A DNA stretch of 64,000 bases from a virus, in IMG/VR virus record IMGVR_UViG_3300045988_113959, positions 31,643 through 95,642 of that record, one strand, 5' to 3'. A program made the translations under genes and the position numbers. Within the stretch, counting starts at the first letter, position 1. Every line of letters starts with the position of its first letter. Under the pieces are notes generated by a model. That model saw only the letters and a list, made by a program, of their open reading frames with translations, had not been told where the DNA came from and made no database searches. Positions 1-37,284 of this stretch are shown here, piece by piece.

Positions 1-281
1 CAGCATTCTTTAAAGATGGTTATATTTATGTTCAAGGAACACAAGATAACAATATACTTAAGAATATATGGGTTCTAGCTATATATGAAGATGAGAATGA
101 CGATGATTGGGATAAACAAACAGAAGATGATATTAAATTACCAGCGTGGATGTTACCGCCAATAAAGCAAATGATTATGAGTAAAGAATTACCATTTATG
201 TTAGGTAGACCTAGCGATGATAGTAACAACTCTACATTAGCAAGCGTTAAACCACATGGACCACAAGACGATGAGGAATAA
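1..281 (+). CDS. 3' end of a virion-module protein (5' end lies outside the window)
   Basis: The frame starting at nt 3 is open from the window edge and ends ...KPHGPQDDEE then TAA at 279-281. It overlaps the next ATG (271), as other plus-arm junctions do. Confidence 0.6.
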   Translation, partial: AFFKDGYIYVQGTQDNNILKNIWVLAIYEDENDDDWDKQTEDDIKLPAWMLPPIKQMIMSKELPFMLGRPSDDSNNSTLASVKPHGPQDDEE

Positions 282-714
282 GAACTCAATAACATATAGA
301 GACATGTATAAAGATTTACCCATAGACGTGCCATACGACGCGTATAAGCGCATATTAAGCGAAATGGGTAATATTATACTATAGTGCGTATTAGACGGCT
401 CAGACGGCTTTAAAATGCCTTTTGGGTTAGGTTATATACAAGTTGGTAAATATAAACCTAAAACTTACACAGATAAATCATTATCTGTTGATTATAAAGC
501 CAGTAAAGATATTGGGAAACGTATATATCATTTAAATGAACACTCTGACGGGTATAAATTTAGGTTACATTGGTCAAAGATACCTCAGACATTTCCAGAT
601 AGATACAAATATCAGCTAAGTCTTGTTAGGCGTAATAAAAGAAGACTGGCTCAATTAATATTTAACAAAACAGATTATATAAATATAAATGATATACAAG
701 TATATAAAATGTGA
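271..714 (+). CDS. hypothetical virion-module protein (147 codons, 1 in-frame TAG)
   Basis: Runs from ATG 271 to TGA 712-714. The in-frame TAG at 382-384 joins a 37-codon N-terminal part to tracked ORF 415..714. There is only a weak HU/IHF-like pattern (FGLGYIQVGKYKPK), so no product is called. Confidence 0.65.
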
Positions 715-733
715 ATCAGTTATAGCTAAGATT

Positions 734-1603
734 ATGGCTGATTTAGATTCTTCTGAGGTAAGGTAGCGTACAAGTGATATTAAGGAGTGGATATTTGAAG
801 CCATAGATAAGATTGGTGCACCTATGCAGTATATCAGTAGACAGTCTGGAGCCGATGGAGTTCCTGTATATAAATTACAGGATAATTAGATTCCATTGCC
901 TTCAGACTTAGTGTATTTAGATGGGGTAGCCTATTCTACATCGGAAAATGGTCCGTGGATTCCATGTAGTACTTAGACTTCTATATTTAAGAAGTAGAAT
1001 ACTACTCAACCTAAACCTATAAAGAATGTACACTTTGAAGATAAAAACTTAGCAAAGGAAGAATAGATTACAGAAGAGCAAAGAATGTAGCATAAAATGC
1101 CAACAGTTCAAGCTCAAATAAATAGACCAAATACTGGAGGTTTCTCTGACTTGTTATATAATGACGACTTCTATGAAAAGCCAGAGTACTTTATAAAACC
1201 AGGTTGGATTGTAATGAATAAGAAGAATGGGTACATTAAACTTGCATATAAAGCAATACCTACAGATGAGAGAGGATACCCTTTAATACCAGATTTAGAA
1301 TCATACAAAGAAGCTATATACTGGTATGTTAATATGAAGTTGTCATTCCCTAAGTTTATGAAAGGATAGCTTGGTGGGAAATTAAAGAGTGCAAACATTA
1401 CTATATATAACTATATACATAATAGATGGAATTATTATAGAAATCAAGCTTATGCTGAAGCCATGATGCCAACTCCAGATGATATGTAGAATATAAAGAA
1501 TGATTGGAATAAACTTATCCCAGATTGGGATGGAGATGATACATTCTTTAATTATATAGGAAAAGAACAATTAACTTATAATGATTACTACAATGGATTC
1601 TAA
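734..1603 (+). CDS. hypothetical virion structural protein (289 codons, 8 in-frame TAG)
   Basis: Runs from ATG 734 to TAA-TAA at 1601-1606. No TAA or TGA occurs in frame. Tracked ORF 1097..1369 is an internal piece. The stop overlaps the next gene's ATG at 1593. Confidence 0.75.
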
Positions 1604-4600
1604 TAAACAACAAAACATGCAAGTTAACTCGTTTGATGGTGGTATGAATACAGATGTAGCAGACCATTTAATTAAATCAAATTAGTACAGACTTGCTAAA
1701 AACTTAAGATTTATTTAGGGTAGAGATGGTAATACTGGAGAACTTAAAAGTTTAACATTGCCAGACCATATATATGATGAAGCAAGTGGTCAACTTGGTA
1801 CTATTGTAAGTTCTTGCCAGATAAGAGATTATGGTATTTTGTTTGTATCTAAATAGAATCCAGAAGGGTAGGATTGTTTATATATATATAGGTTCGATAT
1901 TCCAAAAGATAATAGTAAGCTTGTTAATTTCGATAGTAATGCAGCAAGTTTGATATTTGGACCGTGTACTGACTTCAACTCAAAACAAATTGGATTAGAA
2001 GCTATATTTAGACAATATAGTATTGTTGGTAGAGTTGAGAATAATGATAATATGAAACTATACTTAGCTGATGGCGAACATTAGATAATGATTATTGATT
2101 TATTCCCAGACCCAAATAATATACCAACAAGTATTAAATAGATAGAATCTAATAATAATTTCATAATGTATCCTCCTAAAGTTGTTGAAGTTACATACGG
2201 TAACTTAAAAGCGGGTATGAACCAATATAGTTATCAGTTGTATAGACGTTATAAACAGGCAACTCAAGTATCACCATTAACAAAGATAATCCCAATTGTA
2301 AATAAGAAAAGTGGTAATTTGTACGATGGTGTTTTACAAGGTAATAATACCAATATGGGAATAAAGCTCAGATTTAACGTTGATAATAATATATACGATA
2401 CAATAAAGATATTTAGAGTGCATTATGATAAAATAGGAGAGCATCCAGAGATTGATATTATATACGAAGGTGATTATGATGGTACGTTTGAATATATAGA
2501 CTATGGAGGTTAGAGTTTAGGTAAGTTAACAGTCGAAGAGTATAATTCATCATCTGGTATACATATAATACCTAGAGTTATAGAAGCTAAAGATGATTAT
2601 TTATTTGCAGCTTAGATTAAAGAAAAGTCTGTTACAACTGATAAGTTTGATGATATAAACACAATATCATTAAGATTCTCTGAACAAGGTTTTGCATTTG
2701 CAGCTAATTACTCTGATAGATAGAATAAGTTAGATGGTAAAACCATAAATGATTTAAAAGCGAGCAATTGGAAGTTGTTTGATGACACTACAAGGAAAAC
2801 AGATTGTTTTAATATCATTAACGATATGAGTGACTTGTCTGTAAATACAGACGTTTATATGGAAGATATTAGAAAAAATGGAGGTTCTTCTGCATACACT
2901 TATTTATTTCAACCAAAGGATAATGGTATTATTTATTATGGTGGTGTTGGTAAGCATATAGACTGGAGATTTGTTGTAACATAGATTTCTGGAGATGGTA
3001 ATCCAGATGGAAACGAAAATACTAACTTTGATGATTCATCATCTAATATAGATGACGTTTATCTTGGACAGATAGACCCTAAGAAGATTAAGTTAAGTAA
3101 TAGTACAAAAATACCTGTTAGAAATGTTAGTCCAAATAATAATATAGGTTTTAAAAAATACTATATAAATTCTCGTGGAAATTTTGTTGATGCTGGTAAA
3201 ATAAAAGATAGTGGATTATATACTGGTGCATCTTATAATGACCCAATAGTAGCATCAAATCTAAAATCTCTAAGAAGAGGTGAGCTTTACAGATATGGTA
3301 TTATATTTACAGATAGTCTTGGCAATAAGAGTAATGTAAAATGGATTGCAGATATCAGAGTACCTGGATTATACATAAATGGATTTAATACGTTTGAAGC
3401 TGGTGGTATAAAGACAGAGCTTGGTGTTAATGTTCTTGGTGTTGAGTTTAAATTACATGATTTAGATAAATATGATATAGCTCAATATGAAATAGTTAGA
3501 TGTAATAGAACTATAAATGATATATCAATAGTATCACAAGGAGTTGTATCTAGACCTGTTAAGAGATTCTCGTTTAAAAATGATAAGAATTATCCGTACA
3601 CTCCAAACTTTATATTGTCTACAAATAAGTTTATAACATCAGTAGAACTTAATGCAAATCCATTAAATGATATACGTGAGACTAATGGAAATAGACAGTT
3701 AGGTACAAATATATTTAATGACTAGTTATATCAATTCTTATCACCAGAGTTTTCATTTACACCAACAACTGTAACGGATATAATAAAAGGTACAAATGTT
3801 AATATAAATACACTTAAATATCTATTCCCAAATTCGTCGTTTGAAAAAAGACAAGATGAATGGTTTGCTGAAAATCAAAAAAATACACTATTATAGGTAA
3901 ATCATGATGATAACAATCCTAGAGTTATAGATTCTAATGGTTTTGAAAGAAATGCTAAAATATACGATAACTATTCTGGTTATAGTATATTTAAATTCGC
4001 ATACGATTTAAGAATAAGCAAAACTGGTGGTGGTGGAGCACCTGATTACATGGATGATGTTAATAAGGTTGTTGATAAATTAAAAACATCTAAACTTGTT
4101 TTTAAATATTATAATCAATCATCAGTTGTAACAATGCTTCCACATAGAAAAGGATTTGTTGATAACATAACATATAAACTTAATGATAAATTATATACAT
4201 ACGGTACTGTTATGTATACCTCTGATAACATATGTGAAATAAAAAACCTTAAATTTGTAAAAGGAGAGAAGTGGAATGATTTTGGAACATTAGATTCTAA
4301 AGGCAACCCATCTTTAAAATATATAGATTAGATAAATATTGTAGGAACTTATCAATTCTGCAATTGGGTTATGGGTGGTATATATGGACTTAGTGTGAGT
4401 GAGATGAATGCATGGTTTGAAAAACACGGCGATGTAGACTATGTGTACCAATCTTTAGTAGGTCCTGGTTCATCTGGATTATTAATATAGTTGAATAACA
4501 AATGGAAACATTCTGACTCATCTCAACTAAATTCAGAGATATATCAATTAACAGATACTATTGGTTCTAAGGTTATACAAGCTGTAGTTTATAATGATGA

Positions 4601-6257
4601 TGGTAGTATTATGCCTGGATTACGCCGATTAGGGTATAATAGTGAAACTATAGGTAAGCCAGTTAATGATTACGTTATAAACGCACCAAAGTTTGCTAAT
4701 ACATACTTTAGTTATGATGCTACGTATGGACCTGAGAATGAAAATAACATATATTCATTTACAACACAAGGTACTTATTTATGCAATATAGTTAAAGAGT
4801 GTATTCCTTACGGAGGTTATGAAAAGAATAGTATAGAAAATAGTTTATACTATAGCTATTCAGATGTTTATAAGTACAATAAAGGTGCTGAGAATGTAGC
4901 AGAAGTATTTAATGGAGATACTTATATATGTCCATTTGAATATGTATCATTACATAAGTTTGAGTTTAAAGGATTACACGGACCATTAACAACAACTATA
5001 GTTAATTATATACCAGTTGAGACTAGTATAAATCTAATGTATACATCTGGAACTCAATTTATTAACAATGATTCTGGAGATAATATATCTTGGATTCAAG
5101 AAGAGTCTGGTAGAATATTAAATCATCCAGCTCAAGATAAACCTCAATTTGTATATAATACAGCATATAGTTCAGACTACAAACTACAGATAAATACTAT
5201 TAAGTCATCTTTATTAAACAAGAATGATGAGTATTTCGATTATAGATGTAGATATTCAAATAAGAAGGAAAATGGAGAACTACAAGATTCTTGGACAACG
5301 TTCTTAGCTGCAAACTATATAGACGTATCTCCAGATTACGGAAAGATAACAGAGCTTAAGACTTTTAAGAATAGTTTGGTATTCTTTCAAGAGAGAGCAT
5401 TTGGATTACTGTCTGTAAATGAAAGAACAACGTTAACAGATAATAATAGTAATTAGCTATTACTTGGTTCAGGAGGAGTTCTTGATAGATATGATTATAT
5501 ATCAACTACAAATGGAATGGAAGATGGTAACTTTTCAGACCTCGTTACTAACACAGCTTTATACTGGATAGACTACGATAATAAAGAATATTGCCAGTAT
5601 TCTGGCGGTAATTCTTATAGTATAATATCTAGAATCAAAGGTGTTCAAAAAGCAACAGAGGAAGGTATGTACGACGTTAGACTAGAAGCACCAAAACCAA
5701 AGAAAATATTATACAATTCAAAGTATAATGAAGTTATGTTTTGGAATGGAGATAGTAGAGTTCTTGTTTATAATGATGAGACTCAATTGTTTCATTCTGT
5801 ATATACAATATCTGCAAACGTTGATAGTATTAACTACTTTGATAGGAATATCATAGTTAATGGTAATGATAGTTTGGTAGAGTTTGATAAAAGTGGTAAT
5901 ATTAGACATAACGACAACACTAACACTATTAAAGAATTCTAGCTAAAGTATGTAATTAATGAGTATTATCAATAGGTTAAAGTATTTGATAATATAATAT
6001 TTAATGGTAGTCTAGAATTTAAAGATAACATAAAAGAAACATTCGCAACTCAAGGTTAGGTATCTAATGAATTAACTCCTGAATATATATCATAGAGATA
6101 TTATGATTATAGAGCTGCAATTCCTAGAGCTTCTAATGCAGGCTTATATGGAAATAGAATGAGAGGTAAGTCTATGGAATGTGATATTAAAAATAACATA
6201 GCTGATAATATTATTATACAATATATAACAACTAAATATAGAGCTTTATGGAGTTAA
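1593..6257 (+). CDS. large tail/virion structural protein (1,554 codons, 19 in-frame TAG)
   Basis: I walked 1593-2166, 2982-4050 and 5940-6257 codon by codon and read the other gaps by eye, finding no TAA or TGA. Tracked ORFs 2166, 2775, 4050, 4491 and 5517 share this frame. The 2985-4049 stretch has no in-frame ATG yet stays open. Ends at TAA 6255-6257. Confidence 0.8.
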
Positions 6258-8425
6258 ATTATAGAAGAAGAATGAGAATGCCTATATAGTATCTTCCTGG
6301 ATTTGCATATGGCACATCATATTTACCATGGTACGCATCAAGGCGTAATATGTATGGAGATACAAATGATTATTACAATATAGATGGATAGTATAGACCA
6401 TTAAATGGAAGAAACTCTAATATTAAAGGCGTTGTTGGTAAATTAGGAGATAACGCCAGTAATATTATGTCTTCAGGAATACAATTCGCTGGAGATTTGG
6501 GTAATGCATTTGGTGGCGTTAAGAGTGTAAATGATATACTTGACGAAACTGGAACATCGTATTCAAATGGTATAGGTTTTGGGTATCAGAGAATAAATGA
6601 TATAGATAGAGGGGCTTAGCTAACAGAACTTAGAAGATAGAGTCAAAATAATACAATGAAGACTGTTGGGTCTGGAGCTGCATTGGGTTCAACTATTGGA
6701 AGTGTTGCTGGACCAGTTGGAGGATTGATTGGTGGTGCCGTAGGTGCTTTAGGAGGTCTTATAGGTGGTTTATTTGGTGGTGCTAAAAGAAAGCGTAAAA
6801 TGCTTAGAAGATTAGAACTGGCAAAAAAAGACGCAGAAGCAACAAATAACTATAATCAGAGTTCATCACAATCTGACTATATGATTAATGATTATTATAA
6901 TACAAACGGTACAACTCAAGATGATGTATTGTACGCTAAGCGTGGTAAGGATAAAGGTTATTCTGCTAATGGTATTAATACAAAAACCAATGTGTACACA
7001 TCACAAGGAAAAGTTAATACTACACCTAATGCTAGAGTTGCTGCTGGAGAAAGTATTATAGATAATATAAATGATACAAGTAAAACAACTGGACATGTTG
7101 TTAAAGATGGTAAGTTAGGACAAGATACAAATCTAGCAAACTTAAACGATAGTACAATTGTTCTAGGTCAAGATATAGATTGGAGAAATGGAATGACATT
7201 TAGAGACCAATCTTTACCATACACACAAGCACTTGAAAAGATTAATAAGAAGTATGAAAATAGAACAAATAGTTCTATAAATAAACTTAGAGGAACTATA
7301 GGTAAACAGAGTGATGAGCTACAACAGCAACAAGTAAATAAATTAAAAGAACCTATCGTTCAAAAACTTAAAGATTTATCAGAGCAACAAGCTCTTCAAC
7401 ATAGTCAACAAGAAATGCAAAATAACTATAATATGCCTGGATATGCAAAAGGTAAGAATAATACGTATGGTTATATAGAACCAATGAGCTGGTATAGTAA
7501 TGCTGTACCGATGGGTCTTGGAATGCTTACAAGTCTTGGTCAATATTTTGATGCAAGAGGTTAGAAGATACACACTCCTGATGTATACGCTGGTAACCCA
7601 TACGAAACTGCTGCATTGAACGAAATGTCAAAGCTGAACGTAAACCCATATAAAGCAATACAAGACGTATATAAACAAGATAGAATTAATAGATATGCAA
7701 TCAATAGAGCTGGTGGTTTAAGTGGTTCTCAGAAGTATTTAGCTAATGTTGCTATGGGATTAGGTACTCAAAGTAATATAGCAGATGTGATACAAAAAGC
7801 ACAAGAAGTTAATAATCAGTATAGAGGTAAGTGGGCTGAAGCCGCACTTAATGCTGGTAATGCATTAGCTCAACGTAGACAACAAGCTAATCAGTATAAC
7901 ACAGAATACGCATCACAAGCACACGCAGCAAGACAACAAGGTATGCAAATGGGTATCCGTAACTTTATGGATTACTTACAGCAATACGCAGCAAATGAAT
8001 ATAAGCGTAAGACTGGTAACGGAATGCTTGGATTATATCAGCAACAAGTAGATTTAGATAGAGATAAGTTTAATGCTGGCAACAACGGTGATAATATACC
8101 TGATAATAATGATAGACCATTCTCTTATTCAAAGTATTATAACTTTATGAATGGTATTAATAGCAACAATAGTCCTTATAAATTTGTACCAACAATGAGT
8201 TTAAATACTGGTGCTAATAATAGTATTTTTGGACAAAAGGAGCCTACTAAACTTATGACATACATTAAGAACTACAATCCTAATAGTAATAAAACAACTA
8301 AAATAAAACCTGGCACTGTAAGACCAACTGGAGTTACAAATGATGTAGTTATACCTTATGCAACATACGTTCCACAGTATATTGATTTTACAAACCCAGA
8401 CCCAAGATGGTTAAATTGGCAATAA
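6248..8425 (+). CDS. virion internal/ejection-type protein with glycine-zipper segment (725 codons, 5 in-frame TAG)
   Basis: ATG 6248 overlaps the upstream stop. Tracked ORFs 6656..7564 and 7616..8425 are in the same frame, joined across TAG 7562. Contains GAALGSTIGSVAGPVGGLIGGAVGALGGLIGGLFGG followed by KRKRK. Ends at TAA 8423-8425. Confidence 0.8.
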
Positions 8426-8436
8426 TTATTTAAAAT

Positions 8437-22500: not shown

Positions 22501-25500
22501 CTTATTTTGATAATTATTCTCACAAGGAGGGTGATAATTTTAGAAATAGAACATTACTTAATAAGATGGCTATATTTCCATTGTTTAAATTTAACATGTC
22601 TACAAACACGGGTTCTAAACTATATCTAAGAATGAATAGATATGGTGATTGGATAGATATGATTACTTTTAAATCAGCTGTTAAGGTTGGTGCTGTTCAA
22701 AAAGGATTACAGTTAATATCTAATGATTCTAATGTTGAAGATGGCGTTTCTAAACTATCTTCTTTAGTTGATAGAGATAGTGATACTGCTATAGATTATA
22801 AGACCGGAATTGTTATTAATAAAGGTTCTGAAAATTCACTTTCTGTAAAAGTTCAAAGTTTAGATAATCTTAGAATGCAGTTAAATACAAAAGCTCACGA
22901 AACAGACGAACGTATGATTGGTAAGCAGATGTTTAAGCTGGCATTCTCAAACTTAGTTGATGATGAGAAGTATGGTCATGGTGATAAAAGAAGAACTGGA
23001 AAGTCTATTAGAAAGGATATTATGACCACAATTAATCTACTTACATAGTTTGGTGTAATATCTGTAAAAGATGAGTTTTTTAACGAAGATGGAGATGTTG
23101 ATAATTCTTCTGTATCAAGTTTTGTTTAGAGAGTTTGTAGTAGCAATGGTTTAGGCGCATCTGCTTTACAAATACTTAGTAAAGGTGGAACTATATCAAG
23201 CTTAATGTCAAGAAGAGTATTTGAGAATAGTGTATCTAAGTTTATAAATAAACTTGTTGTAGATATAAACTCAAAAGGTGGTACTGCTATTCAGCAATCT
23301 GTACTTGGATTCTCTGCATTTAAGAAAGGTGATAATTTACTTGGACTTGAACAAGCTAAAGGTAGAATACCAAAATCAATACAATTGAATAATGGAAACG
23401 AATTAAAGTGGAAGACTAATAAAAACTACACCCAAGTGATATTAAGCGAAAACTTCTTTAGGGATATAGTTCCAGCTAATATTCAACAAATGGGATATGA
23501 AGCTATAAGAGCTTGGTTGTTTGAAAAGAATATAATTGGAGAAAATGCAAATCCACTTGGTGTTGGCTATCGTATTCCTACACAGGGTCAATCGTCAATG
23601 TTTGCGCCACAAGTTGTTGATATTCTTCCAAAACAGTCTGGAGATGTTATAATAGTACCAAGAGAGTTTACTGGTCAGACTGGTTCCGACTTCGACGTTG
23701 ATAAGATATTCTTAGCTCTTAAATACTTTAACAAATCAGGTTCTGAACACGATATAGATTATGATTTAATAGAGTCTATTTATAATGGCGAATCTAGTAA
23801 TATGTAGGTCGCTGTTAAAATTATATCTAAAATGTCTGGAAGAAGTGAAGAGGATGTCGCTAAAGCTATAGAAAGTCAAGACGATGAGTCTATTAATTCT
23901 ATTGTTGATGATTTAGATATAGAAAAAGCTGTAAAAAATCACCTTATAAATACTTATATAGACATTCTTACAGATGATAAAAACTTCTCACTTGCAAGAG
24001 GTTCTATTGACGTTGTAACAAATATATTGCAAGACTAGCTTGTTAAGAAGTATCTAAAAAATACATCTAATGGCTATTCTGTTGGAGGTTATCAACTTAG
24101 TCCGTATTTCCAAACTATGAGAAAACTTGAGTTTAGTTCTGGTAAGCAAGGTATTGGACCATTTGCTCTTAATGTTACAAACTTATCTCTTACACAGTAC
24201 ACTAGATTAACATTTGACTATGGTGAAAATCCATATGAGTTTGGAAGTCTTGATGCTATATATGGAGAAGATGGAATGCGTATTGCTGACTGGCTATCTG
24301 CAATGGTTAATGCTAATGTGGACGTTGCTAAAGACCCATATGTGTTTGCTTTAAATGTAAACCAAGCTACATATAGTCATACTAACTTCTTAATTAGAGC
24401 TGGAAAGGGTCTTGGTGTATTTACATTCCTAACACAACCATCTATAAAAGAGTTTGCTAATATAAAAAACAACTCTGGTAATGTATATGGTTTTAACTTA
24501 GAAGGTGATAAGAGTGAAGGTGATTATACTGGCAAGTATGAAAAGAGTATATATAATCAAATATACTACGGTATTATAAAACAACTTAAAGAGTGTTTAT
24601 TAGCTGTTGACGATAAGGATTCTCAAAAGTAGATTAGGAGTTTTATAAACTATGTAGATTCTTTAATTATAGACAAAAATCACAAAGATATCACACCAGA
24701 GGAAAGAAAGTCTATAAAAAGACCATTTTCTAAGAAGTAGATGTTTGATGTTGAACTTGGAAAGAAATCGTTAGAATTTAGTAATAGTAAACCAGGAGTT
24801 AACAAAGCTTCATCGCTTGCGTTCCAAGCTTGTGCACTAAACTCATTTAAAGATGTTGGTGTTTATGCTAAAAAATTATCAGATTTAGTTAAAGTATCTC
24901 AGATTGATACTAAGAAGTTTGGTAATTCTATAGCTCAGCAAATAAACTTTTCAAATCGTATAGATGTATTTAAAACAACAGATGGATTTACAATAAACAG
25001 AAAAGATTTTAAATCTTGGGTTTAGCAGCTCGCTAAAGAAAGAGAGGCTAAGACTGGGTAGAAAGTATCTTTAGGGAGATTTGAATCTACCGTAGCTATA
25101 AATGAATATTTTAAGAACACATTCTTAGGTAGTAAATTTAAAGAGTCTAAAAAGCTAACAAGATTATTACTTAAGAATCAATCGTTTACAGCAACAAGAC
25201 TATTTGATAATATATTCAGAAACATAATGGGTTAGACATTAGGCTTTAAAGATGCAGATGAAAATACTGTTAGTTACAAACCTACTTCAAAAGATGAGGT
25301 TGTAAACACAATATCTGATTCTATTGATAATGTCTTAAGGTTCTTATCGTTATTTGGCGTTGGTTCAAGAATTATTAAATCTGCATCATTTAAAGAAAGA
25401 AATCCAGACGCTATAGACTTTACAATGGGTGGTGATATAAATCTTGTTAAAGATAAAATTAAAACTATATTGTTTGGTAATAAAGAAGTTGATAATATCT

Positions 25501-27557
25501 TTTTAAGATTTAACAAACTTAAGAGTGATATGCAAGCTAATCCTTAGAATTACCCAGGTCTTATAGACCCAGTTACACTTGGTGTTCAGAATGAGCTTTT
25601 GAATTATCTAAATCCAATATCAGCTAATGAAAAATCACCTGTTGGTAGATTTGTGTTATCTACAAATCAAATGAAAGTTAATCAAAGTAAGAAATAGATT
25701 TTATCAAGCGCATTTAGTCAACTGTTATCATATCAAGATGAAAATGTTAGACAACTTGCTGAAGATTTAGCTTTCTATGCATATTATTCTTCTTATGACC
25801 AGAATAGAGTTGACGCATTCTTTGATTTAGTTCCTGTTGAATACAGAGCTCAATATGATAAAGCTCTTATGTTTGCTCTACACGATATGAATCGTAGTGA
25901 AAATAAACTTGTAAATACAAACAATGATTTATTAAGTTTATATAACTATGATGTTAATAATATTGAAGCTGATAGAGCAGAAAATATAATCGATATTATA
26001 TCAAGAAACTATTGGTACGATGATAATATAGTTAAAACTCACTATATAAAAGAAGATGAAAGTGTTTTTTTATTAGGAGGAGGTTATGATGTTCTTGGAG
26101 AGCCAGTAATTGTTCAAAATGAAGATAATAAGGTTTATCCTAACTTTATAGTTACTAGCAATTCTGATAGCTCTTATATTAAAATTAAGAGTGGAAAGAA
26201 TTATATGTTGTATAAAAATATAGGTTCTGTTATTAAATATAGAGATGGTAATATCGTTGGTATTCAATATGTTTACGCTGCTACAAACAAGGCTGGAATA
26301 AAACAAGGTCAAGCAAATATTCTTGAGATGTATGGGTCTTTTGGTGTTGGTTCCATATTTGAAAATAATAAACTTGATGAAGAGTTCTCTCATGATAAAG
26401 TTGTATCTGATGTAGAAAAGCTTGTAAAAGATAGTAATGAGGCTAATAGCGGTTATGGTTTTGAATTATCATGGTATAAGCCTGTAATAAAACAATCTAC
26501 ATCATAGTATAAAGATAACTTTATTCAGACTCAAATTGCTAATCCCGAACGTGTTATAAAAGTTGGTCCAGTTAAGTTAAAGGCTGGTCAAAAAGCTCCA
26601 GATAGAGTTGGTATAAACAAAGCTGATGTAGTTATAAATATAGTAAATGATTCTGTTAAAGAATCAGATTATTATAATACAATAAAGAGTGAAGATGCTA
26701 AATAGAAAACCGTTACTGTTAATATGAGTGAAAACCCGTCTAAGTTTATAAATAAGATTTTAACCTTAATAAATAAGGATAATGCTATTATACACTTTAC
26801 AACTCCAATATTTGATTATATATTAGAAAGAGGAGTTAGTGATGATAGAATCAGTAAATATATTGAGAGTGAAATTGAAAGACTTGAGAATGTTTTTGAT
26901 ACACAAGATGTGAAAGAAAAAGAAGTGCTTCTTAAACAAAATAGAGAGATGCTTGAAAGCTTTAAAGCTCGTAGAGTTTTAGCTTTGCAAGACCTACATT
27001 CTTTTATTAGAGAAATATTAAACCAACTGTCTATCAATGACGTTAATATAAATAGAATATCAACATCTTCTACTAAAAAAGGAAACTCTAAAAGATATGC
27101 TTTAGCAAAATCTGTAGCCGTATTGTCTAATTATATGCAATATACGTTCTCTGGTAAGAATATAATATACTGTAATAATAATCTTACATCTGATAATAAA
27201 GCATTTAGAAATTATATAAAAGAACTTCAGTATGAGGTTGACGATAGTGAAAATTTATTAGAAGATGCAGCTATAAATGAGTATATTGATATAAATCAAA
27301 CATTAGCTAAAGATGTAATGAACTATGACGACAAATCATCTAATATAGTAGAAAGGACATTAAAAGAAAATACTGGCGAAGATTCTAAAACTTAGACAGA
27401 AAGTAAAACAGATGATGACGCTAGCAATAATATATCTAGTTTTGATTCGCTAAGTATACTTTCTAATGCTATAGACTATAGCTCTGATGATTTCTTGGAC
27501 GAAGTTTAGGAAGATTTAGAGAATGATTTAGAAGATAATAATCACGAAAAATGTTAA
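10521..27557 (+). CDS. giant virion protein (5,678 codons) with a two-barrel RNA polymerase DxDxD motif and a zincin HExxH motif; about 33 in-frame TAG
   Basis: All 21 tracked ORFs from 10521 to 27395 start at coordinates divisible by 3. I read every gap between them and found only TAG, never TAA or TGA. Ends at TAA-TAA 27555-27560. Motifs are GYRIPTQGQSSM...GSDFDVDK (23565-23702) and HEAWH (18285-18299). Confidence 0.85.
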
Positions 27558-27563
27558 TAATAT

Positions 27564-30500
27564 ATGTTTTGTCCATATTATAAAAATAAAGAAGTGTTTG
27601 ATGGCTTTAATAGTATGATTCAAGCATTTGGTGGACAACCTATGACGGAAGATGAATTTAAGTCGGCTAATCTAAGAAATTAGAGAGTCGGCTTAGATTT
27701 ATATGCTATGGAAGCAGCTTATAGGTTGTATGATAAAAACGGAGGATTGTTTTTAGATAAAGTTCCAAACAGTCAATCTAAAGAGAATCCAAACGGTATA
27801 GATTCCAGATTATTCTCTGATATTCTTGCTAAGAATAATGGTGATTATCTTAAGTCTATAAAAGAAAAAGCTCAATATTATTCTAAAAGGTATATTAATA
27901 CGTACGGAGATTGGCTTTCAAATAAACCAAATAAAGATTCTTATTTAGATATCAATCACGAACCAATAATGAATAATGAAAGAGCTTCGATTGCTCTATT
28001 TAGTGCTAATTAGACTTTTGGTGATGGTATTGGTAGGCATGACCCAGTAACAAGGTTATTTGCAGGAGAAGTTGTGAGTTCTACATATTTGTTACAATAT
28101 TTCCTAGATACTAATACGTTTTCTTTAAAGAATAAAATATTAGCCAAAGTTTTATCTAAGCACGATATTCCAGTAAGGATTAATAATAGTATAAATGCAG
28201 ACGCTGACAGTGTAATTGTTAAAGGTTATAGATATATACAGTTTAACGGTAATGTATTAAGAAATTATTCAAATAGATATGTAGCGAATACATTAATACA
28301 CGAGATTGTGCATCAATTAACAACTGGTGCATTACGTAATCCACAAACTAAAGAAGAAAAGGATTTATAGAGAAATGTGAAAAAGTTTTATAACTATATA
28401 AACAAACACTTTAAAGAGTTTTCTTCTATATTTAGCGACGTGGATGGTGCATTGTACGCTATGGAAGATGAGTTTGAATTTGTTGCAGAATTAGCATCAG
28501 ATGAATATACTAGAGAGCAAGTTTATAAAGTAGCAAAATTAATAGACAATAATAAAAATATTGTTATACGAACACTTAATAATATAATAAACGCAATATC
28601 AAAAATACTTGTTGGTAGAAGTGTAGTAGGTAGTGTTAAAGAGTTTGATAAGCTTAGTAAGTAGGTTGAAGATTTTTTAATGTCAAGAAATGTAATTGTT
28701 AATAAAGAACCTTCAAATTAGGAAGTTATAAATTATTATGATGATATAATGAAAAATGCATCTGATTATGATATGGCTGGTGAAAACATTATTCATCTTA
28801 ATAAAGCTGTAGACTATATAGATAGACATTATAAAAAATCATCTAACAATAGTGATACTTATTATCAAAATATACAAAATTCACTATCTGTTAGACTTAA
28901 TGCAATTAGAACATCAAGTTTAGACGCATCGAAGAAAGCTAATCTAATCAACTCAACACAATCTTAGATAGACTTGTTTACAATATCAACTATATCTCAA
29001 TATGATGCCATTACATCGTTTTTGAGACAGGTTGTACCACAATTAATACAAGATAAACAAGAAATCTTCGATATTTATTACAAGCATAAAAGTTTTACAT
29101 CTAATGATTATATGTTTCAAATGCATAGCAATATAAAAATGTATGACTCAATCGTTGAACAACTTCAACTCATGCTTAGTGAAGATGGTAACATTCAACA
29201 AATTGTAGACTTATATAACAAGGGAAAAATTGACAAAGATAAAATATCAGTAGATGATTTACTAAATGTTAAACAAGATGTTGATAATTTGTCATCAGTA
29301 ACTACAGCTGCTAAGGCTGTATTAGACCACATGTTAGATTCTATAAGCTACGATAAAATGAAGGATGTATCAGAATCTGTTGGTGCGAGAGAAGGTGTTA
29401 AATATGCAGACTCTTTTGTAATGCATGAGATTATCAATGATGATATAAGTGTTAGACAGTTGTATGCTGGAGCGTCAGATTCATCAACAAATGAGGCTAT
29501 TAGAGCAATATCTCATATGGTAAATAAAGCTATAGAGAATGCTGATAATGACGCAATACCAGTTGGTTTAGCTATGCTTAATGCTGTTAAGAATCTTAAG
29601 CGTGGTGAGTCTCAATTATAGTTATATGAGTTAGATGAAAATGGTCAAACTACAGGTTATCTTGTAAGAAATTTAAATTATGGTAAATTCTGGAAAAATT
29701 ACGATAATGCATTGAAAGATATAAATAGAGCCGTTACTAAAAAATTTAGTAAAGATGGTCTTATATTAAAAGATGATAATAGATTTCCACCAGATTAGAA
29801 TGATGATGCAAGAATTATGTGGAATAATATGAGAAATAAATGGCTTGCAGAAAATTCTCATAGAAAATATACTCCAGAGTATTATAAAATATAGTCAGAG
29901 GTTCCATATTCTGCAAGAAAAGCATTAGACCAATATGATTCTCAAATACAGTCGTTATTATCTAAACAGGGTGTTATAGATGAGAATGGTATAAAACATT
30001 TCGATAAGCTAACAGATGAAGAATGGGACCGTTTAAAGTCAGCTTGGAGAGACAAAGCAATGCTGTATGAGGATTATACTATATTTGGTGTTTTAAAGAC
30101 CGGAGAAGAGCTTAAAATAGCTCGCTCACTACAAGACTTCAGAAAGAAATTAAACGACTATAGAGAGAAGAAAACAGGTAAGAAATTCGACCCTGTTTAT
30201 GACCAAAAAGGTTGGCAAAAACAATTTGATAAGATAGTTGAAGAATGTGGCGGTAAAAAAGCGTTCAACAAGTGGATGCAAGATGGTTACAGTTCTAAGT
30301 TTGACGATTAGAAATTCCTTAAGTGGGCAAGAAGAAACGCAAGACTTCAGTTTAAGAAAGATGAAGATGGTAATGCAATAGTATTTGAGAAAATAAAAGA
30401 AGCTATGCGTGGAATTTCAATTGACTTTGGAAAAGAATACGATGAGCTTAAAGAAAAGAGACAAGCATTACTTAGACCGCATAAAGACCAATATGGTGAA

Positions 30501-33236
30501 ATTGATGGTAATAATATACCAGAATCAGTAAGGAATATATTAATGGATATAAAATCTTAGATGCGAGATATTCGCAATAAAGTTTTATCTGAAAATCAAC
30601 AAATATCAAAACTATATTATAAGTATTCTGAGCTTATGGACGAATATATAACCAGAGAGAATACAGAATACTATAATGATGTAGAAAGGTCTATAGATGA
30701 TATGCTTCTTGAAGATGAAATAGACGACCCTGGTGTAAGATATGCAATGCTTCTTGACTATGGCTATGACCCAGATGATACTGGAGAGTTTATACAACCA
30801 GATGACTGGTGGGTTAAAACTGTAGCTACAGATAAACTTGAGTATATGGAGTTTACACCTGGAAAAGGTTGGATGTTACAACAAGACGAATCTGTATTCC
30901 TTGACAAAGAGTATGAAAAACTATCTAAGGAAGAAGGAAATAATAGTTCGTTTATACCGAAAAAGAGTCTGTATGATAACTCCCGCGCGTTTGAAAAGAT
31001 AAAAAACTCTGAGGGTTTATATAATTTATATAATCTAACATTAGAGTATATGAAAAAATCAAACGAAATGTAGACTAATAGAATGTTTACAGATGATTAT
31101 CTTTTACCACAGATGCAAGGTTCTTTATGGAAGAGATTAAAAAGAAGTAGAACTAAATGGGCTACATTTATTGAATGGTTTAAAGAATAGATTGGTATAT
31201 CTCAAAGTATTGATGATAGTATCCAATACGGAGAGTCTTCTGCATTGGATGAGAATAGTAATGAGTATGGTAATAAAGAAGTATCAAATATTGGTAAATA
31301 CCCAGATGGTCGTAGATTTAATATACTACCACAGTATTACACAAGAAAGCTATAGGACCCGTCACAATTGTCATCTGATTTAGTTAAAATGATAACAACT
31401 TATTATAACATGTCTTCATTATATAAATATAAATCTGAAATTAAAGACGATGTTGAAAGCTTAATAGATGCTATAGGTAAATAGAAGTTTGCTCAAGATT
31501 ATGCACAATTTTCTACTAAAAAAACAACTGTAGATGGAATAAACTCAAAGACATTTGAATTTATTAATAAGTGGGTTGAAATGAATCTGTATGATAAAGC
31601 AAGACTCAAATTTAATTTCAATAAATGGGGTTTAAATATAAACTTTGATAAGACTTTACAATTATCAAGGAGATATATCACAGCTAGAAACTTAGGACTT
31701 AATCCAAAAGTTGCTGTAGTTGGATTCTTAACAACTATGTATAACCATATAGCTTACACACTAACTGGTCAAAGATATAGCGCTAAAGAAACTTTAGCTT
31801 CTATGCTCGATATAGCTTCAAGAACACTATTCAAACATTTACTTGGAGCTAGAACTATAGGTAATCCATATACTAAAGATAAAATGCTTGTCATAATGAG
31901 TAATTTTGGTATGGCTAATCAGTGGGATAACACTATAAGTCATACGAATAGAAATAGGTTTATACAATCTGCATTTAAACAGTCTATATATGGATTTATG
32001 TCTACCACCGATATATTAACTAAACAATAGATAGCGCAATCAACTCTTAGAGCTCACCATTATGTAGATGGAGAATTTTTAACAAAGTATGACATAAGAA
32101 TGCGTCGTGTTAAAAATGGCGAAGATTGGTTTAATAACGCTATGAAGCAATATAATAAAAATAAATCTTTATGGGATTTAATTGACACTTCAACAGGTTA
32201 GATAAAAATAACTGGCGATAATCAAGATTATAAAGCTGCTTATAAAAAGAGTGAATTTAAAATTAAAAATAGATGTGTTAAATATGCAGAAGAAGCCGAC
32301 GGTATGGCTACACCATTACAAAGAGCTTTACTTGTACGTAGTTGGGCTGGTGTTCTTGTAATGCTTCATAGGCAATATTTTCCACTACTACTTGATAAGT
32401 ATTTTGGTAAAAGAGTGTATGATTATGATATGTAGGAGTACAAAAACGGTCTACATAGAAATATATTTAATTTACTTTCATCTTTAACAGGTCATAATAT
32501 TGTTACAAGTGGACTTATATGGGGTAGTGTTGGAACTTTGTTCTTAGGTCCTGTATTAGGCGGTGGTATTGGGACTGTTGCTGGTATTATTAGTCATATA
32601 CACACACGCAATAAGAATAAAGCTAATGGTGTAAAATCAAAAGGAGTTATAAAAGCATTTAAAGACTTTATAGATGATAAGTCGTCTGATGAAGCATATG
32701 TTAAATCTCTATCAAACAAATATCAACTAAAACAGACTGCTTCTGAAATTGCACTTTATATTGGAATAAGCTAGCTTTCAGCTTTAGCTACAGCTTATGC
32801 AAAAGCATCTGACGATGATGACGCTTGGTGGAAGTATATGTTAGCGTATTGGTTAGAGGCATTTAAATGGGAAGCTTTCAACCCGTATAGAATTGACGAT
32901 ATTTCAAATAACTTCAAAACTGTATCAGCAGCAACATCTATATCCGACGCGTTTAGTGATATTGGTCAAGGTGCAGCATCTGGAATAATGAATAGATTTT
33001 TCCCAAGAATATCAATGCTATATGACCCGTCACTTATGTAGAATATTGGAGACGATGCAGAAGATTATTTCACAACACCATTAGGGTCTCGTTCTCGTAC
33101 ATATGAAGGTTATTCAAAAGCATTTAGAGATATAATGAAAGCAACACCTTTCCATAGTATACCTGAACAAATACATGATTCTAAATCTAAATTAAACTAC
33201 CTTAAAACACAGATAGAAAAGGAACATATTAATTAA
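27564..33236 (+). CDS. large virion/ejection-type protein (1,890 codons, about 20 in-frame TAG) with HExxH motif and C-terminal glycine-zipper segment
   Basis: ATG 27564 lies 4 nt after the upstream TAA-TAA. Tracked ORFs 27708 to 32838 share its frame, and the gaps hold only TAG. Ends at TAA-TAA-TAA 33234-33242. Contains HEIVH at 28299-28313 and LGPVLGGGIGTVAGII near 32545. Confidence 0.85.
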
Positions 33237-33638
33237 TAATAAAAATAAAACCCGACTACTCTCACGAGCGGTCGGGTTTCTTTGTGTTATGAATGTATTG
33301 TAAGTATTAATTTCTTTATCAGTTATACTATACTCGTTAGCTTTTAGTAAATACATTATTCTATTAACATATTTTTTATTTGCTAAAAAAGACAATGTAA
33401 AATACCCTCCATCTATAGAAGATGATATATAATTTTCTTCAAGTTTAGCTAACCAATAAAGATTTTTAATGTCTTTCTTATTTTTAATTTTATACCTCAG
33501 TTTGTAAATTACACTTTCTGCGTTAAGAGTAACTTTAACTCCTACAAAGCAGTGATAATTTACCAAACTGGGGTATTTTAGTATATGCGGAATTGTAATC
33601 AACTCTCGATTAAATTGCAAACTCTTGAACGATTTCAT
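33192..33638 (-). CDS. hypothetical protein (148 aa); its C-terminal part runs through the terminator hairpin
   Basis: Tracked ORF, last gene of the minus arm. The final ~45 nt overlap the end of the plus-arm gene, and the terminator stem is inside the ORF. Confidence 0.45.
   Translation of the reverse strand: MKSFKSLQFNRELITIPHILKYPSLVNYHCFVGVKVTLNAESVIYKLRYKIKNKKDIKNLYWLAKLEENYISSSIDGGYFTLSFLANKKYVNRIMYLLKANEYSITDKEINTYNTFITQRNPTARESSRVLFLLLINMFLFYLCFKVV
33248..33279. terminator. bidirectional intrinsic terminator at the junction of the convergent arms
   Basis: aaacccgac (33248-33256) pairs with gtcgggttt (33271-33279). It is flanked by an A-rich run upstream and tttctttgtgtt downstream, so it reads as hairpin plus U-run on both strands. 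Confidence 0.7.
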
Positions 33639-33837
33639 CTACCAAACTTTCGTTTGCTTGTTCATCTTCAAACATACATTCAGCTTCTATTTCTGAGGCT
33701 AATTCTTGTATATCTACATCCTCATTAAACATTTCAATTTCAATTTCAGCAGCTGTTTCGTTTGCAAGATTTTCTTCTTGAGTATCCATTACTTCAAGCT
33801 CTACAATACTCTCTTCAATATTATAATTCTGACTCAT
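33610..33837 (-). CDS. small highly acidic protein (75 aa)
   Basis: Tracked ORF, very rich in E and D (EESIVELEVMDTQEENLANETAAEIEIEMFNEDVDIQELASEIEAE...) with no basic patch. Confidence 0.6.
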   Translation of the reverse strand: MSQNYNIEESIVELEVMDTQEENLANETAAEIEIEMFNEDVDIQELASEIEAECMFEDEQANESLVDEIVQEFAI

Positions 33838-33849
33838 AGGTTCTAATTA

Positions 33850-35621: not shown

Positions 35622-36006
35622 GTTTCTTTTGACTTAAAAGTTCTTGAATCATTTCGTCTACTTGCTTATGATTTCTCACAAGGTAACACTTTATTTTACT
35701 TCTGTGTTTCTTCAAGTAGTATTTAAATAGCTTCCACCTTAACGGAAAGCTATCTCCCATCAGTCCTTTACATTCTACGATAAATCCATTACCTATAAAA
35801 TCAGGTAAGTATGTCATAGCTCGTATTTTCTCCTGCTGGTACTCGAATTTTGGTAAAAGTTCAAAATGCTTTGGCTCATATTTAACTGGTATACCAGCAT
35901 TCATAAAAGCTTCATAAGTATAGCATTCGAGTTTACTACGAAAATGTAGACCATACTTATCGACCTTAGTCGCATTTCTTACTTTTCCTTTAGATTTTTG
36001 TGGCAT
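35605..36006 (-). CDS. T7 endonuclease I-like Holliday-junction resolvase (PD-(D/E)XK)
   Basis: FRSKLECYTYEAF..GIPVKYEP...TYLPDFIGNGFIVECKG parallels the T7 gp3 pattern FRSGLE...YTPDF...FVETKG. Confidence 0.65.
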   Translation of the reverse strand: MPQKSKGKVRNATKVDKYGLHFRSKLECYTYEAFMNAGIPVKYEPKHFELLPKFEYQQEKIRAMTYLPDFIGNGFIVECKGLMGDSFPLRWKLFKYYLKKHRSKIKCYLVRNHKQVDEMIQELLSQKKHGKTK

Positions 36007-37202: not shown

Positions 37203-37226
37203 GACTTATAAGTTCTAAATAACTGT

Positions 37227-37268: not shown

Positions 37269-37284
37269 TACATAAGTTATAAAC

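What the first reader, a model, noticed from the sequence alone, without database searches (positions are those of the whole stretch)
1..33236. Arm-specific amber (TAG) recoding: late/virion genes need TAG as sense, early genes use it as stop
Every plus-arm gene breaks into fragments at TAG only. Adjacent tracked ORFs share one frame and are separated by single TAG codons, for example 8641..8925, then TAG, then 8929..9144. I counted about 94 in-frame TAGs by hand (1+8+19+5+8+~33+~20) and no in-frame TAA or TGA. All eight genes end in TAA or TGA, several in doubled or tripled TAA. Gene junctions become typical phage overlaps only under readthrough. After TAG 10513 the frame runs three codons to TGA 10522, giving an ATGA overlap with ATG 10521. 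The minus arm has long intact standard-code ORFs. Late-gene TAG-to-Gln recoding is known for crAss-like and other gut phages, so the phenomenon is not new. It is still the organising principle of this window, and standard gene callers will shred 33 kb of it.
Basis: partly seen in the sequence, partly recalled or inferred. Interest (0 to 1): 0.75.

Follow-up and report, generated by a model that had tools for sequence, protein, structure and literature searches.

The report
Amber-recoded late genes, crAss-like phage

Summary
On the + strand of 1..33236, eight back-to-back genes (one cut by the window start) hold 96 in-frame TAG codons and no in-frame TAA or TGA. All eight end in TAA or TGA. Reading TAG as sense raises coding coverage from 71% to 99%.

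In close relatives (68-98% protein identity), 94 of the 96 TAG sites can be aligned. At 45 sites every relative keeps TAG. At 38 sites the only alternatives are CAA or CAG. TAA, TGA and TGG never occur opposite a TAG. TAG therefore means glutamine (code 15).

The minus arm (33192..~63300) holds replication genes, an ECF sigma factor, a TrpRS and tRNAs in standard code. Its 43 ORFs end in TAA 33 times, TGA 5 times and TAG 5 times.

The window is a Crassvirales genome near Bohxovirus (Oafivirinae), a group where late-gene TAG-to-Gln recoding is published.

The window has no amber suppressor tRNA. Its two closest relatives encode a tRNA(CUA) at the head of the late arm, about 6.5 kb beyond the window's right end.

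Several side observations are less ordinary: a two-piece tmRNA, tRNA-like minihelices, a TrpRS, and suppressor tRNA genes that were swapped or split in relatives.

The parts
1..165 (+). g0: 3' end of a late gene cut by the window start. One in-frame TAG (76-78); ends in TAA.
217..714 (+). g1: 165 aa, phrog_12177 (unknown function). 2 in-frame TAG; ends in TGA.
   Evidence: It is 95-98% identical to ORFs of L003 and L004 that are interrupted by TAG in the same way.
689..1603 (+). g2: 304 aa, phrog_33740. It sits where relatives annotate a tail tubular protein. 8 TAG against 6 CAA and 3 CAG; ends in TAA TAA.
1581..6257 (+). g3: 1558 aa, crAss-type tail stabilization / virion structural protein (phrog_28748). 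19 TAG.
6248..8425 (+). g4: 725 aa virion-module protein. 5 TAG.
8437..10524 (+). g5: 695 aa virion-module protein. 8 TAG. Its TGA overlaps the ATG of g6 as ATGA.
10521..27557 (+). g6: 5678-aa giant ORF with 33 TAG. The C-terminal part is the crAss-type virion RNA polymerase (DFDVD motif).
   Evidence: Relatives keep one ORF of more than 3330 aa.
27564..33236 (+). g7: 1890 aa with 20 TAG; ends in TAA TAA TAA. Last gene of the late arm.
33192..63229 (-). Standard-code early/replication arm with 43 ORFs of at least 60 aa. Genes identified: PDDEXK nuclease 33850-34830, AAA ATPase 34830-35621, DnaG-like primase 36222-37202, AAA_24 39384-40121, DnaB helicase 40645-41571, DNA polymerase 42142-44088, ECF sigma factor 52198-52770, TrpRS 61213-62331. 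Stops: TAA 33, TGA 5, TAG 5.
52895..53608 (-). Early gene ending in TAG (52895-52897). The next 186 nt are intergenic and carry the promoter-like motif in front of the sigma factor gene.
56076..56498 (-). Early gene ending in TAG. The closest relative (L098) has TAA here, and the next gene's ATG lies 2 nt downstream.
56629..56820 (-). Early gene ending in TAG followed directly by TGA TGA TGA (back-up stops).
58952..59560 (-). Early gene ending in TAG. Next in-frame stops are TAG (+3 codons) and TAA (+12 codons).
62873..63229 (-). Early gene ending in TAG. The next TAA is 9 codons downstream (8 sense codons between).

Best explanation
The window is about two thirds of a ~97-kb Crassvirales (Oafivirinae, Bohxovirus-like) genome. 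It covers the distal 33 kb of the late, virion-protein arm (+ strand) and about 31 kb of the convergent early/replication arm (- strand).

The late genes are written in genetic code 15, where UAG is read as glutamine. The early genes work under the host's standard code: they contain no internal TAG and usually end in TAA.

Inferred mechanism. Early genes are translated by the unmodified host machinery. A phage-encoded amber suppressor tRNA(CUA), charged with Gln, then accumulates. Its gene lies at the head of the late arm, between tRNA-Met and dUTPase, just outside this window. Once it is present, the TAG-containing virion genes can be translated in full. These include the tail proteins, the 5678-aa virion RNA polymerase fusion and other large proteins. 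The in-frame TAGs thus act as a translational lock that delays late proteins.

What is shown: the codon pattern, its conservation, TAG/Gln-codon exchange, arm-specific functions, and the presence and position of tRNA(CUA) in the two nearest relatives.

What is inferred: that this genome carries the same tRNA, that it is charged with Gln, and the temporal order of events.
For: - 96 in-frame TAG and 0 TAA or TGA across 11,069 codons, with 99.98% of the arm coding under TAG=sense.
- Coverage by ORFs of at least 60 aa is 71% under code 11 and 99.3% under code 15 on the + arm, with no gain on the - arm.
- Eight IMG/VR relatives show the same TAG-only interruptions.
- Opposite window TAGs, relatives have TAG 171, CAA 54, CAG 38 and GAA 10. 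Per site: 45 all TAG, 38 Gln codons only, 11 other. TAA, TGA and TGG never occur.
- Standard-code homologues span the TAG positions, with Q enriched about 5-fold.
- The base after TAG is A in 46 of 95 cases, against 27.6% after CAA/CAG (p=1.6e-5). From memory of the E. coli literature, this is the context that favours amber suppression.
- Late-arm products are virion proteins (phrog_28748 stabilization protein; RNAP with DFDVD).
- The early arm holds DNA polymerase, DnaB, primase, ATPases, a nuclease and a sigma factor.
- TAG is used as a true stop in 5 early genes, one with a TAG-to-TAA change in a relative.
- tRNA(CUA) lies at a conserved slot (tRNA-Met, Sup, dUTPase) in both closest relatives, on the late strand about 2.3 kb after the divergence point. 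TAG-bearing genes start downstream of it.
- One of these tRNAs shares U1-A72, the D arm and its length with phage tRNA-Gln(UUG).
- Literature: PMC7886860; 10.1101/2021.08.26.457843; PMC9523058.
Against: - No tRNA(CUA) is present anywhere in the 64-kb window (ARAGORN, Rfam and a custom anticodon-loop scan). For this genome the suppressor is therefore inferred from relatives.
- The second-closest relative has a different, class II (long variable arm) tRNA(CUA) at the same slot. Its amino-acid identity cannot be read from sequence.
- No expression timing or peptide data exist for this phage.
- 11 of 94 aligned TAG sites have non-Gln codons in relatives. These are mostly Glu, Lys and Ser codons, as expected for variable surface positions.
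Confidence: 0.92

Rival explanations
1. TAG is decoded as an amino acid other than glutamine. One route is Trp, through the phage-encoded TrpRS acting on a CUA tRNA. Another is Ser, Leu or Tyr, through a class II suppressor like the one in relative L211.
For: A bona fide TrpRS gene lies in the standard-code arm at 61213-62331 (TIGR00233, 212.7 bits against a cut-off of 176.75). TrpRS genes accompany TGA-to-Trp recoding in Jade phages (10.1101/2021.08.26.457843). Relative L211 carries an 89-nt long-arm tRNA(CUA) that is most similar to tRNA-Leu.
Against: TGG is never aligned with TAG in either direction, while CAA/CAG make up 92 of the 120 non-TAG codons. Even in the genome with the class II tRNA, the four TAGs it has where the window and L003 both have a non-TAG codon all align with CAG (sites 1818, 7307, 8494, 9250; three of these are also TAG in L004). 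The TrpRS is found in only one other IMG/VR contig, so it is not part of the clade's shared machinery. TGA is not recoded here.
Confidence: 0.04
2. Read-through happens without a canonical suppressor tRNA. It could rely on near-cognate host tRNA-Gln after RF1 is disabled. It could also rely on a non-canonical decoder such as the 54-nt D-armless tRNA-like element with a CUA-containing loop at 38007-38060(-).
For: The window holds no canonical tRNA(CUA). Published surveys detect suppressors in only about 40% of TAG-recoded phages. Element A has a 6-bp acceptor stem, a T arm, a perfect 5-bp stem and a 7-nt loop A-U-CUA-A-C, and it follows a conserved promoter-like motif.
Against: Canonical tRNA(CUA) genes exist in both closest relatives just outside the window's range. 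Element A occurs only in the window and one relative. The homologous slot in other TAG-recoded relatives holds hairpins with 3-5-nt loops or a 60-nt insert. In L016 the loop closes into a 7-bp stem with a triloop, and in the window the tRNA-like fold (-11.3) is not the minimum-free-energy fold (-12.3).
Confidence: 0.03
3. The TAGs are real stops. The arm would then be pseudogenised, mis-assembled, or made of many short genes.
For: The GenBank record of the nearest named relative (PV686213) is annotated in exactly this way, as dozens of short hypothetical proteins.
Against: Only one of the three stop codons ever occurs in frame across 33 kb, while the off-frames hold hundreds of each. The TAG positions are conserved or exchanged for Gln codons in independent assemblies. 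Homologues in standard-code phages are single long ORFs. Gene junctions become normal only under read-through.
Confidence: 0.01

Closest known systems
Genetic code 15 (TAG to Gln) recoding of late/structural genes in crAss-like phages (Crassvirales Delta group, now Suoliviridae/Darmviridae). Sources: Yutin et al. 2021, PMC7886860; Borges et al., 10.1101/2021.08.26.457843; Peters et al. 2022, PMC9523058.
   Same: Same order and subfamily-level clade. In-frame stops are TAG only and are confined to the structural/late block. Replication genes are in standard code. TAG is equivalent to Gln. A suppressor tRNA is encoded by the phage (seen here in the nearest relatives). The tail tubular-position gene (g2) is the most heavily recoded: 47% of its Gln-type codons are TAG, in line with Borges' report of a preferentially recoded tail tube family.
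   Different: Nothing essential differs. Details seen here that the papers I read do not mention: the suppressor sits at the head of the late strand between tRNA-Met and dUTPase; two genomes 94-97% identical to the window carry non-homologous tRNA(CUA) genes at that slot; in Bohxovirus PV686213 the tRNA appears split by a ~1-kb insertion.
The 'code-change module' of TGA-recoded Jade phages (suppressor tRNA + TrpRS + RF1 upstream of the lysis cassette; Borges et al.).
   Same: The translation-related genes (here TrpRS, tRNAs and tmRNA) are themselves written in standard code. In relatives, a suppressor tRNA lies immediately upstream of the recoded genes.
   Different: The recoded stop here is TAG (to Gln), not TGA (to Trp). 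The TrpRS is therefore not matched to the recoding, and almost all relatives lack it. Among the window proteins I scanned, no release factor was found.
Amber-recoded Lak, Agate and Garnet phages (Borges et al.; Ivanova et al. 2014, cited from memory).
   Same: Hosts use the standard code. Late genes carry in-frame TAG and early genes are compatible with the standard code.
   Different: These are unrelated phage lineages with different genome sizes. Some encode RF2; I found none in the window proteins I scanned.

Membership tests
Code-15 (TAG to Gln) late-gene recoding in Crassvirales | Conserved phage genes are interrupted in frame by TAG only, never by TAA or TGA | tested here: met
   96 TAG, 0 TAA and 0 TGA in 11,069 codons.
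Code-15 (TAG to Gln) late-gene recoding in Crassvirales | TAG positions align with glutamine (CAA/CAG) in homologues | tested here: met
   92 of 120 non-TAG codons opposite window TAGs are CAA or CAG. At 38 of the 49 variable sites the alternatives are Gln codons only. Q is enriched about 5-fold in distant homologues, two of the four in standard code.
Code-15 (TAG to Gln) late-gene recoding in Crassvirales | Recoding is confined to the structural/late module; replication genes are in standard code | tested here: met
   The + arm holds virion proteins and the virion RNAP. The - arm holds DNA polymerase, DnaB, primase and the rest as intact code-11 ORFs.
Code-15 (TAG to Gln) late-gene recoding in Crassvirales | Phage-encoded amber suppressor tRNA(CUA) | tested here: inconclusive
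   Absent from the window. Present in both closest relatives at a slot that maps about 6.5 kb beyond the window end. This feature is not obligatory for the family, since published surveys detect it in about 40% of members.
Code-15 (TAG to Gln) late-gene recoding in Crassvirales | Peptide evidence that UAG is translated as Gln | not testable with these tools
   This needs virion or metaproteomic mass spectrometry. It has been done for other crAss-like phages (PMC9523058; abstract seen).
Crassvirales (Oafivirinae, Bohxovirus-like) | Homology and synteny with crAss-like signature genes | tested here: met
   Best GenBank match is Bohxovirus PV686213. g3 matches the crAss stabilization protein. g6 carries the crAss-type RNAP DxDxD region and matches the crAss001 and crAssphage RNAP. 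MCP lies upstream in the relatives' contigs.
Code 4 (TGA to Trp) recoding | In-frame TGA within conserved genes | tested here: not met
   There are no in-frame TGA in the + arm, and TGA ends 2 late and 5 early genes. Treating TGA as sense gives no ORF gain.

The most novel reading that the evidence does not exclude
Beyond an ordinary suppressor tRNA, the standard-code arm of this lineage encodes an unusually dense set of translation-related RNAs. These are a two-piece (permuted) tmRNA and at least seven tRNA-like elements (acceptor stem plus T arm; seven listed under Noticed in passing). Three of them (two tRNA-like elements and the tmRNA) follow one conserved promoter-like motif. There is also a TrpRS.

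The most novel reading not excluded is that some of these are working parts of the code switch. They might rescue or manage ribosomes at UAG before the suppressor accumulates. One of them (38007-38060, with a loop A-U-CUA-A-C) might act as a non-canonical amber decoder. In that case they would not be unrelated accessory RNAs.
Probability: 0.07. Interest if true: 0.75.

Novelty: already known. Interest (0 to 1): 0.3.

Why it matters
The practical importance is annotation. Any code-11 gene caller will cut this 33-kb arm into about 50-100 meaningless fragments. That is exactly what has happened in the GenBank record of the nearest named relative (PV686213, where the 77 features overlapping the late-arm stretch shown are all short 'hypothetical protein' CDSs). 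Such a caller will also miss one of the largest phage ORFs, the 5678-aa virion RNA polymerase fusion.

Biologically the window is a clean, textbook instance of the published model in which in-frame amber codons lock late-gene translation until a phage suppressor tRNA is made. It does not change that model.

Work on the relatives adds one useful point. In this clade the suppressor sits at a fixed slot at the head of the late strand. It can be replaced by a non-homologous tRNA(CUA), or split by an insertion. This helps explain why surveys fail to detect suppressors in many recoded crAss-like genomes.

Tried and rejected
1. Canonical suppressor in the window. ARAGORN, Rfam (gathering and E<=1 thresholds) and a custom scan for 5-bp stems around YU-CUA-RN loops all found none.

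2. D-armless mini-tRNA(CUA) at 38007-38060 as the decoder. A collection-wide pattern scan of IMG/VR gave 25 hits, and only the closest relative had the stems. Homologous slots in other recoded relatives lack a 7-nt loop. The thermodynamics are unfavourable or ambiguous. Canonical tRNA(CUA) genes were then found in the relatives. Rejected as the main mechanism.

3. TrpRS as part of the recoding. TGG never aligns with TAG, and only one related contig has the gene. It is about 50% identical to ordinary bacterial TrpRS. Rejected.

4. PHROGs on g5, g7 and both halves of g6 gave no hits. The RNAP identity of g6 came from tblastn instead.

5. The 4 in-frame TAGs upstream of the minus-arm gene 33192-33638. 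They lie in the overlap with the preceding ORF, before the real ATG, and are not recoding.

6. The ORF-free region 47566-49854. No reading frame opens under any single stop reassignment, and Rfam has no hit there. It remains unexplained.

7. Group I intron in the split Bohxovirus tRNA. Rfam finds none, and the inserted ORF gives only sub-threshold HNH hits. The nature of the insertion is unresolved.

8. Covariation of the minihelices. It is strong (2-5 pair types at 11 of 12 positions), but the set was selected by a scanner that requires pairing, so the figure is not independent evidence.
Full report
**Observation**

Read with TAA and TGA as the only stops, the + strand of 1..33236 becomes eight contiguous genes:
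- g0 1-165 (cut by the window start)
- g1 217-714
- g2 689-1603
- g3 1581-6257
- g4 6248-8425
- g5 8437-10524
- g6 10521-27557
- g7 27564-33236

In frame they contain 96 TAG and no TAA or TGA. The two off-frames of the same genes contain 1351 TAA, 721 TGA and 634 TAG. All eight genes terminate in TAA (6) or TGA (2). The terminators are doubled after g2 and g6 and tripled after g7.

Coverage of the arm by ORFs of at least 60 aa rises from 71% (47 pieces, longest 542 aa) under code 11 to 99.3% (longest 5678 aa) under code 15. On the other arm the change is negligible. Reassigning TGA or TAA gives no comparable effect. GC skew changes sign at about 33 kb, as expected for two convergent arms.

Everything else stands.

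**What the sequence is**

The best GenBank match is Bohxovirus sp. (PV686213; Crassvirales, Oafivirinae). That record is annotated under the standard code as strings of short hypothetical proteins.
- g3 is the crAss-type tail stabilization / virion structural protein (phrog_28748; tblastn).
- g2 occupies the tail-tubular position.
- The C-terminal part of g6 carries a DFDVD motif. It matches the RNA polymerase of crAss001 and gp44 of crAssphage. g6 is therefore a 5678-aa virion RNAP fusion.

The minus arm encodes the following:
- a PDDEXK nuclease
- two AAA-type ATPases
- a DnaG-like primase
- a DnaB helicase
- a DNA polymerase (phrog_1252)
- an ECF-type sigma factor
- a tryptophanyl-tRNA synthetase

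The + arm is thus the late/virion arm and the - arm is the early/replication arm.

**What TAG means**

Eight IMG/VR relatives (68-98% protein identity) show the same TAG-only interruptions. In codon-level alignments, the codon opposite a window TAG is TAG 171 times, CAA 54, CAG 38 and GAA 10, with nothing else above 3. The reciprocal table gives the same picture.

Per site, 94 of the 96 TAGs can be aligned:
- at 45 sites all relatives keep TAG
- at 38 sites the only alternatives are Gln codons
- at 11 sites other codons occur

TAA, TGA and TGG never appear. CAA needs two mutations from TAG yet is the commonest replacement. This points to shared meaning rather than mutational proximity.

Two distant homologues of g3 use the standard code (cr55_1 and cr118_1, with no in-frame TAG). 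They run uninterrupted across the TAG positions. Across these two and two TAG-recoded homologues (cr273_1, cr115_1), Q is the commonest residue opposite the TAG positions (11 of 65, against 3% background).

The base following TAG is A in 46 of 95 cases, against 27.6% after CAA/CAG (p=1.6e-5). From my own knowledge of the E. coli literature, this context favours amber suppression.

**The early arm**

Among 43 minus-strand ORFs of at least 60 aa, the stops are TAA 33, TGA 5 and TAG 5. The five TAGs behave as stops:
- The gene 56076-56498 has TAA instead in the closest relative, and the next gene's ATG follows 2 nt later.
- The gene 56629-56820 ends TAG TGA TGA TGA.
- The other three have in-frame TAA within 8 to 61 codons.

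An apparent cluster of TAGs upstream of 33192-33638 lies before the true start codon. 'Early genes use TAG as stop' is therefore correct but applies to a minority. Most early genes simply avoid TAG.

**Mechanism**

The window has no tRNA(CUA). ARAGORN and Rfam find only tRNA-Arg(TCT) at 57163-57236 and an odd tRNA at 44552-44633 (anticodon AAC). A custom scan for CUA anticodon arms finds nothing tRNA-like. The structural arms of about 55 relatives' loci scanned (ARAGORN, ±10 kb around the MCP gene) also lack tRNAs entirely.

I considered a 54-nt D-armless element with a CUA loop at 38007-38060 and rejected it as the decoder.

Walking beyond the window's right end in the two closest relatives then gave canonical amber suppressors at one conserved slot. 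Both lie between tRNA-Met(CAT) and a dUTPase gene, on the late strand, about 2.3 kb after the point where the two arms diverge. That corresponds to about 6.5 kb beyond window position 64000.

The ORFs ahead of this slot (one 71-aa call apart) and the dUTPase are TAG-free. The TAG-bearing genes start just downstream.

- In L214 the tRNA is 72 nt. It shares U1-A72, the D arm and its length with the tRNA-Gln(UUG) of related phages.
- In L211 a non-homologous 89-nt class II tRNA(CUA) occupies the same slot. Even so, the four TAGs that genome has where the window and L003 do not all align with CAG (three of them shared with L004).
- In Bohxovirus PV686213 the slot holds the two halves of a Gln-like tRNA. 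Joined, their loop could read CUCUAAC, though I could not place the exon boundaries. The halves are separated by about 976 nt containing a 301-aa ORF with weak HNH matches. This would explain why neither ARAGORN nor Rfam reports a suppressor in that complete genome.

The published model therefore applies: standard-code early genes, a phage suppressor tRNA, then translation of TAG-containing late genes. For this genome the tRNA itself is inferred from relatives.

**Comparison with what is known**

Yutin et al. [quoted passage not shown] They also note imperfect agreement with suppressor detection.

Borges et al. describe the same architecture and the temporal model. They detect suppressors in about 40% of TAG-recoded phages and find a tail tube family preferentially recoded. 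Here g2 has 47% of its Gln-type codons as TAG.

Peters et al. [quoted passage not shown]

The finding is thus a correct reading of a known phenomenon in a clade where it has been described.

**Side observations**

The standard-code arm is rich in translation-related and structured RNAs. All are listed under Noticed in passing.
- A two-piece tmRNA (RF04321, 68.2 bits; also called by ARAGORN; conserved in relatives).
- At least seven tRNA-like elements made of an acceptor stem, a GG-containing linker and a T arm; the two shortest (41-42 nt) are bare minihelices.
- A promoter-like motif, TTAGAACGCAAATAAATAGC, in front of several of these RNAs and of the sigma factor gene.
- A RAGATH-12-like RNA.
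- A conserved 2.3-kb ORF-free stretch.
- A TrpRS that is absent from nearly all relatives.

**Verdict**

The phenomenon is already known. Interest is low to moderate, mostly for annotation practice and for the side observations.

Noticed in passing
window 54138-54331 (-); ARAGORN span 54047-54361: A two-piece (circularly permuted) tmRNA gene. It scores 68.2 bits against Rfam RF04321 (gathering 47) over the full model, and ARAGORN calls it independently with tag peptide GNFNVVDYTCVA*. It is conserved with the same tag in L098, L099 and L100, and is present in Bohxovirus PV686213 (70.6 bits). A promoter-like motif lies just upstream at 54380-54397.
   Followed up: partly
window 61213-62331 (-): A full-length tryptophanyl-tRNA synthetase (TIGR00233, 212.7 bits against a cut-off of 176.75) in a phage that recodes TAG to Gln, not TGA to Trp. 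Only one related IMG/VR contig (L097) has it. It is about 50% identical to ordinary bacterial TrpRS, and no crAss-like GenBank phage has a homologue.
   Followed up: partly
window (-): 37227-37268, 38007-38060, 38556-38623, 44205-44264, 45492-45541, 54052-54092, 56951-57004: A family of short (41-68 nt) tRNA-like elements. Each has a 6-7-bp acceptor stem, a GG-containing linker in place of the D arm, a variable or absent central hairpin, and a canonical T arm (TTCGANT); nearly all are then followed by A-C. ARAGORN does not call them and none reaches Rfam's gathering score (56950-57004 gets a sub-threshold tRNA hit, 26.1 bits against 29). Homologous copies in relatives show compensatory changes in both stems, but the set was picked by a scanner that requires pairing. 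One of them (38007-38060) has a loop A-U-CUA-A-C; this is probably a coincidence.
   Followed up: partly
window (-): 37894-37913, 38068-38087, 38445-38464, 52775-52792, 54380-54397: A conserved motif, TTAGAACGCAAATAAATAGC, with 4 matches at up to 3 mismatches against 0.01 expected. It lies immediately upstream of tRNA-like elements, the tmRNA, the ECF sigma factor gene and a small ORF. In relatives the same motif precedes very different tRNA-like genes. It is probably an early or middle promoter. The GAAC resembles an ECF -35 element, but that is my inference.
   Followed up: partly
window 44552-44633 (-): An 82-nt tRNA found by Rfam (53 bits) but missed by ARAGORN. It has an enlarged D loop and the anticodon loop CUAACAA (anticodon AAC, Val, with A34). 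The slot upstream of the DNA polymerase gene is a tRNA hot spot. Relatives carry Ile(GAT), Ile(AAT), Val(AAC), Ser(TGA)+Ser(GCT) or Met(CAT) there.
   Followed up: partly
window 47566-49854: A 2.3-kb stretch with no substantial ORF on either strand under any single stop reassignment, and with higher G+C (0.38). It is nevertheless conserved at 75-87% identity in distant relatives, as well as or better than coding regions; 48182-48526 is the most conserved part. Rfam has no hit. It could be a large non-coding RNA or a heavily interrupted gene.
   Followed up: partly
window 61038-61114 (-) and 57540-57621 (-): A RAGATH-12-like RNA lies just downstream of the TrpRS gene (63.4 bits, E=7e-11, below the gathering score of 75). 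Bohxovirus has clear RAGATH-12 (104.5 bits) and RAGATH-15 (226 bits). There is also a weak twister-P1-like hit (34 bits, E=6e-4) near tRNA-Arg.
   Followed up: no
window 10521-27557 (g6): A single 5678-aa ORF, among the largest phage ORFs. The region about 10530-16490 is only 28-30% identical to L002, L003 and L004, whose neighbouring genes are 68-98% identical, yet it is 96% identical to L005. This looks like a swapped or hypervariable N-terminal module in front of the virion RNAP.
   Followed up: partly
L214 5492-5563 (-) and L211 5497-5585 (-), the closest relatives, outside the window's range: Two genomes 94-97% identical to the window carry non-homologous amber suppressor tRNAs at the same slot, between tRNA-Met and dUTPase. 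One is a 72-nt Gln-like class I tRNA(CUA). The other is an 89-nt class II tRNA(CUA) with a long variable arm, a 6-bp anticodon stem and U73.
   Followed up: partly
L096 (PV686213) about 13243-13210 (-) and about 12233-12194 (-): In the Bohxovirus genome the same slot holds the 5' and 3' halves of a Gln-like tRNA. The acceptor stem and the anticodon stem pair across the two halves, and the joined loop could read CUCUAAC, although the exon boundaries are unresolved. The halves are separated by about 976 nt containing a 301-aa ORF with sub-threshold HNH endonuclease matches. Rfam finds no group I intron. This probably explains why tRNA finders report no suppressor in that recoded genome.
   Followed up: partly
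window 52198-52770 (-): A phage-encoded ECF-type sigma-70 factor (regions 2 and 4; TIGR02937, 79 bits) in a phage that also packages its own RNA polymerase.
   Followed up: no
window 1-33236, positions following each TAG: The base after in-frame TAG is A in 46 of 95 cases, against 27.6% after CAA/CAG (binomial p=1.6e-5). This suggests selection on the context for read-through.
   Followed up: yes
L003 297-1680 compared with L004 180-1679: In the closest relative the major capsid protein gene is split into two ORFs with an ~90-nt break, while in L004 it is one 499-aa TAG-free ORF. The cause may be a small insertion, an intron or a frame change. It lies outside the window.
   Followed up: no
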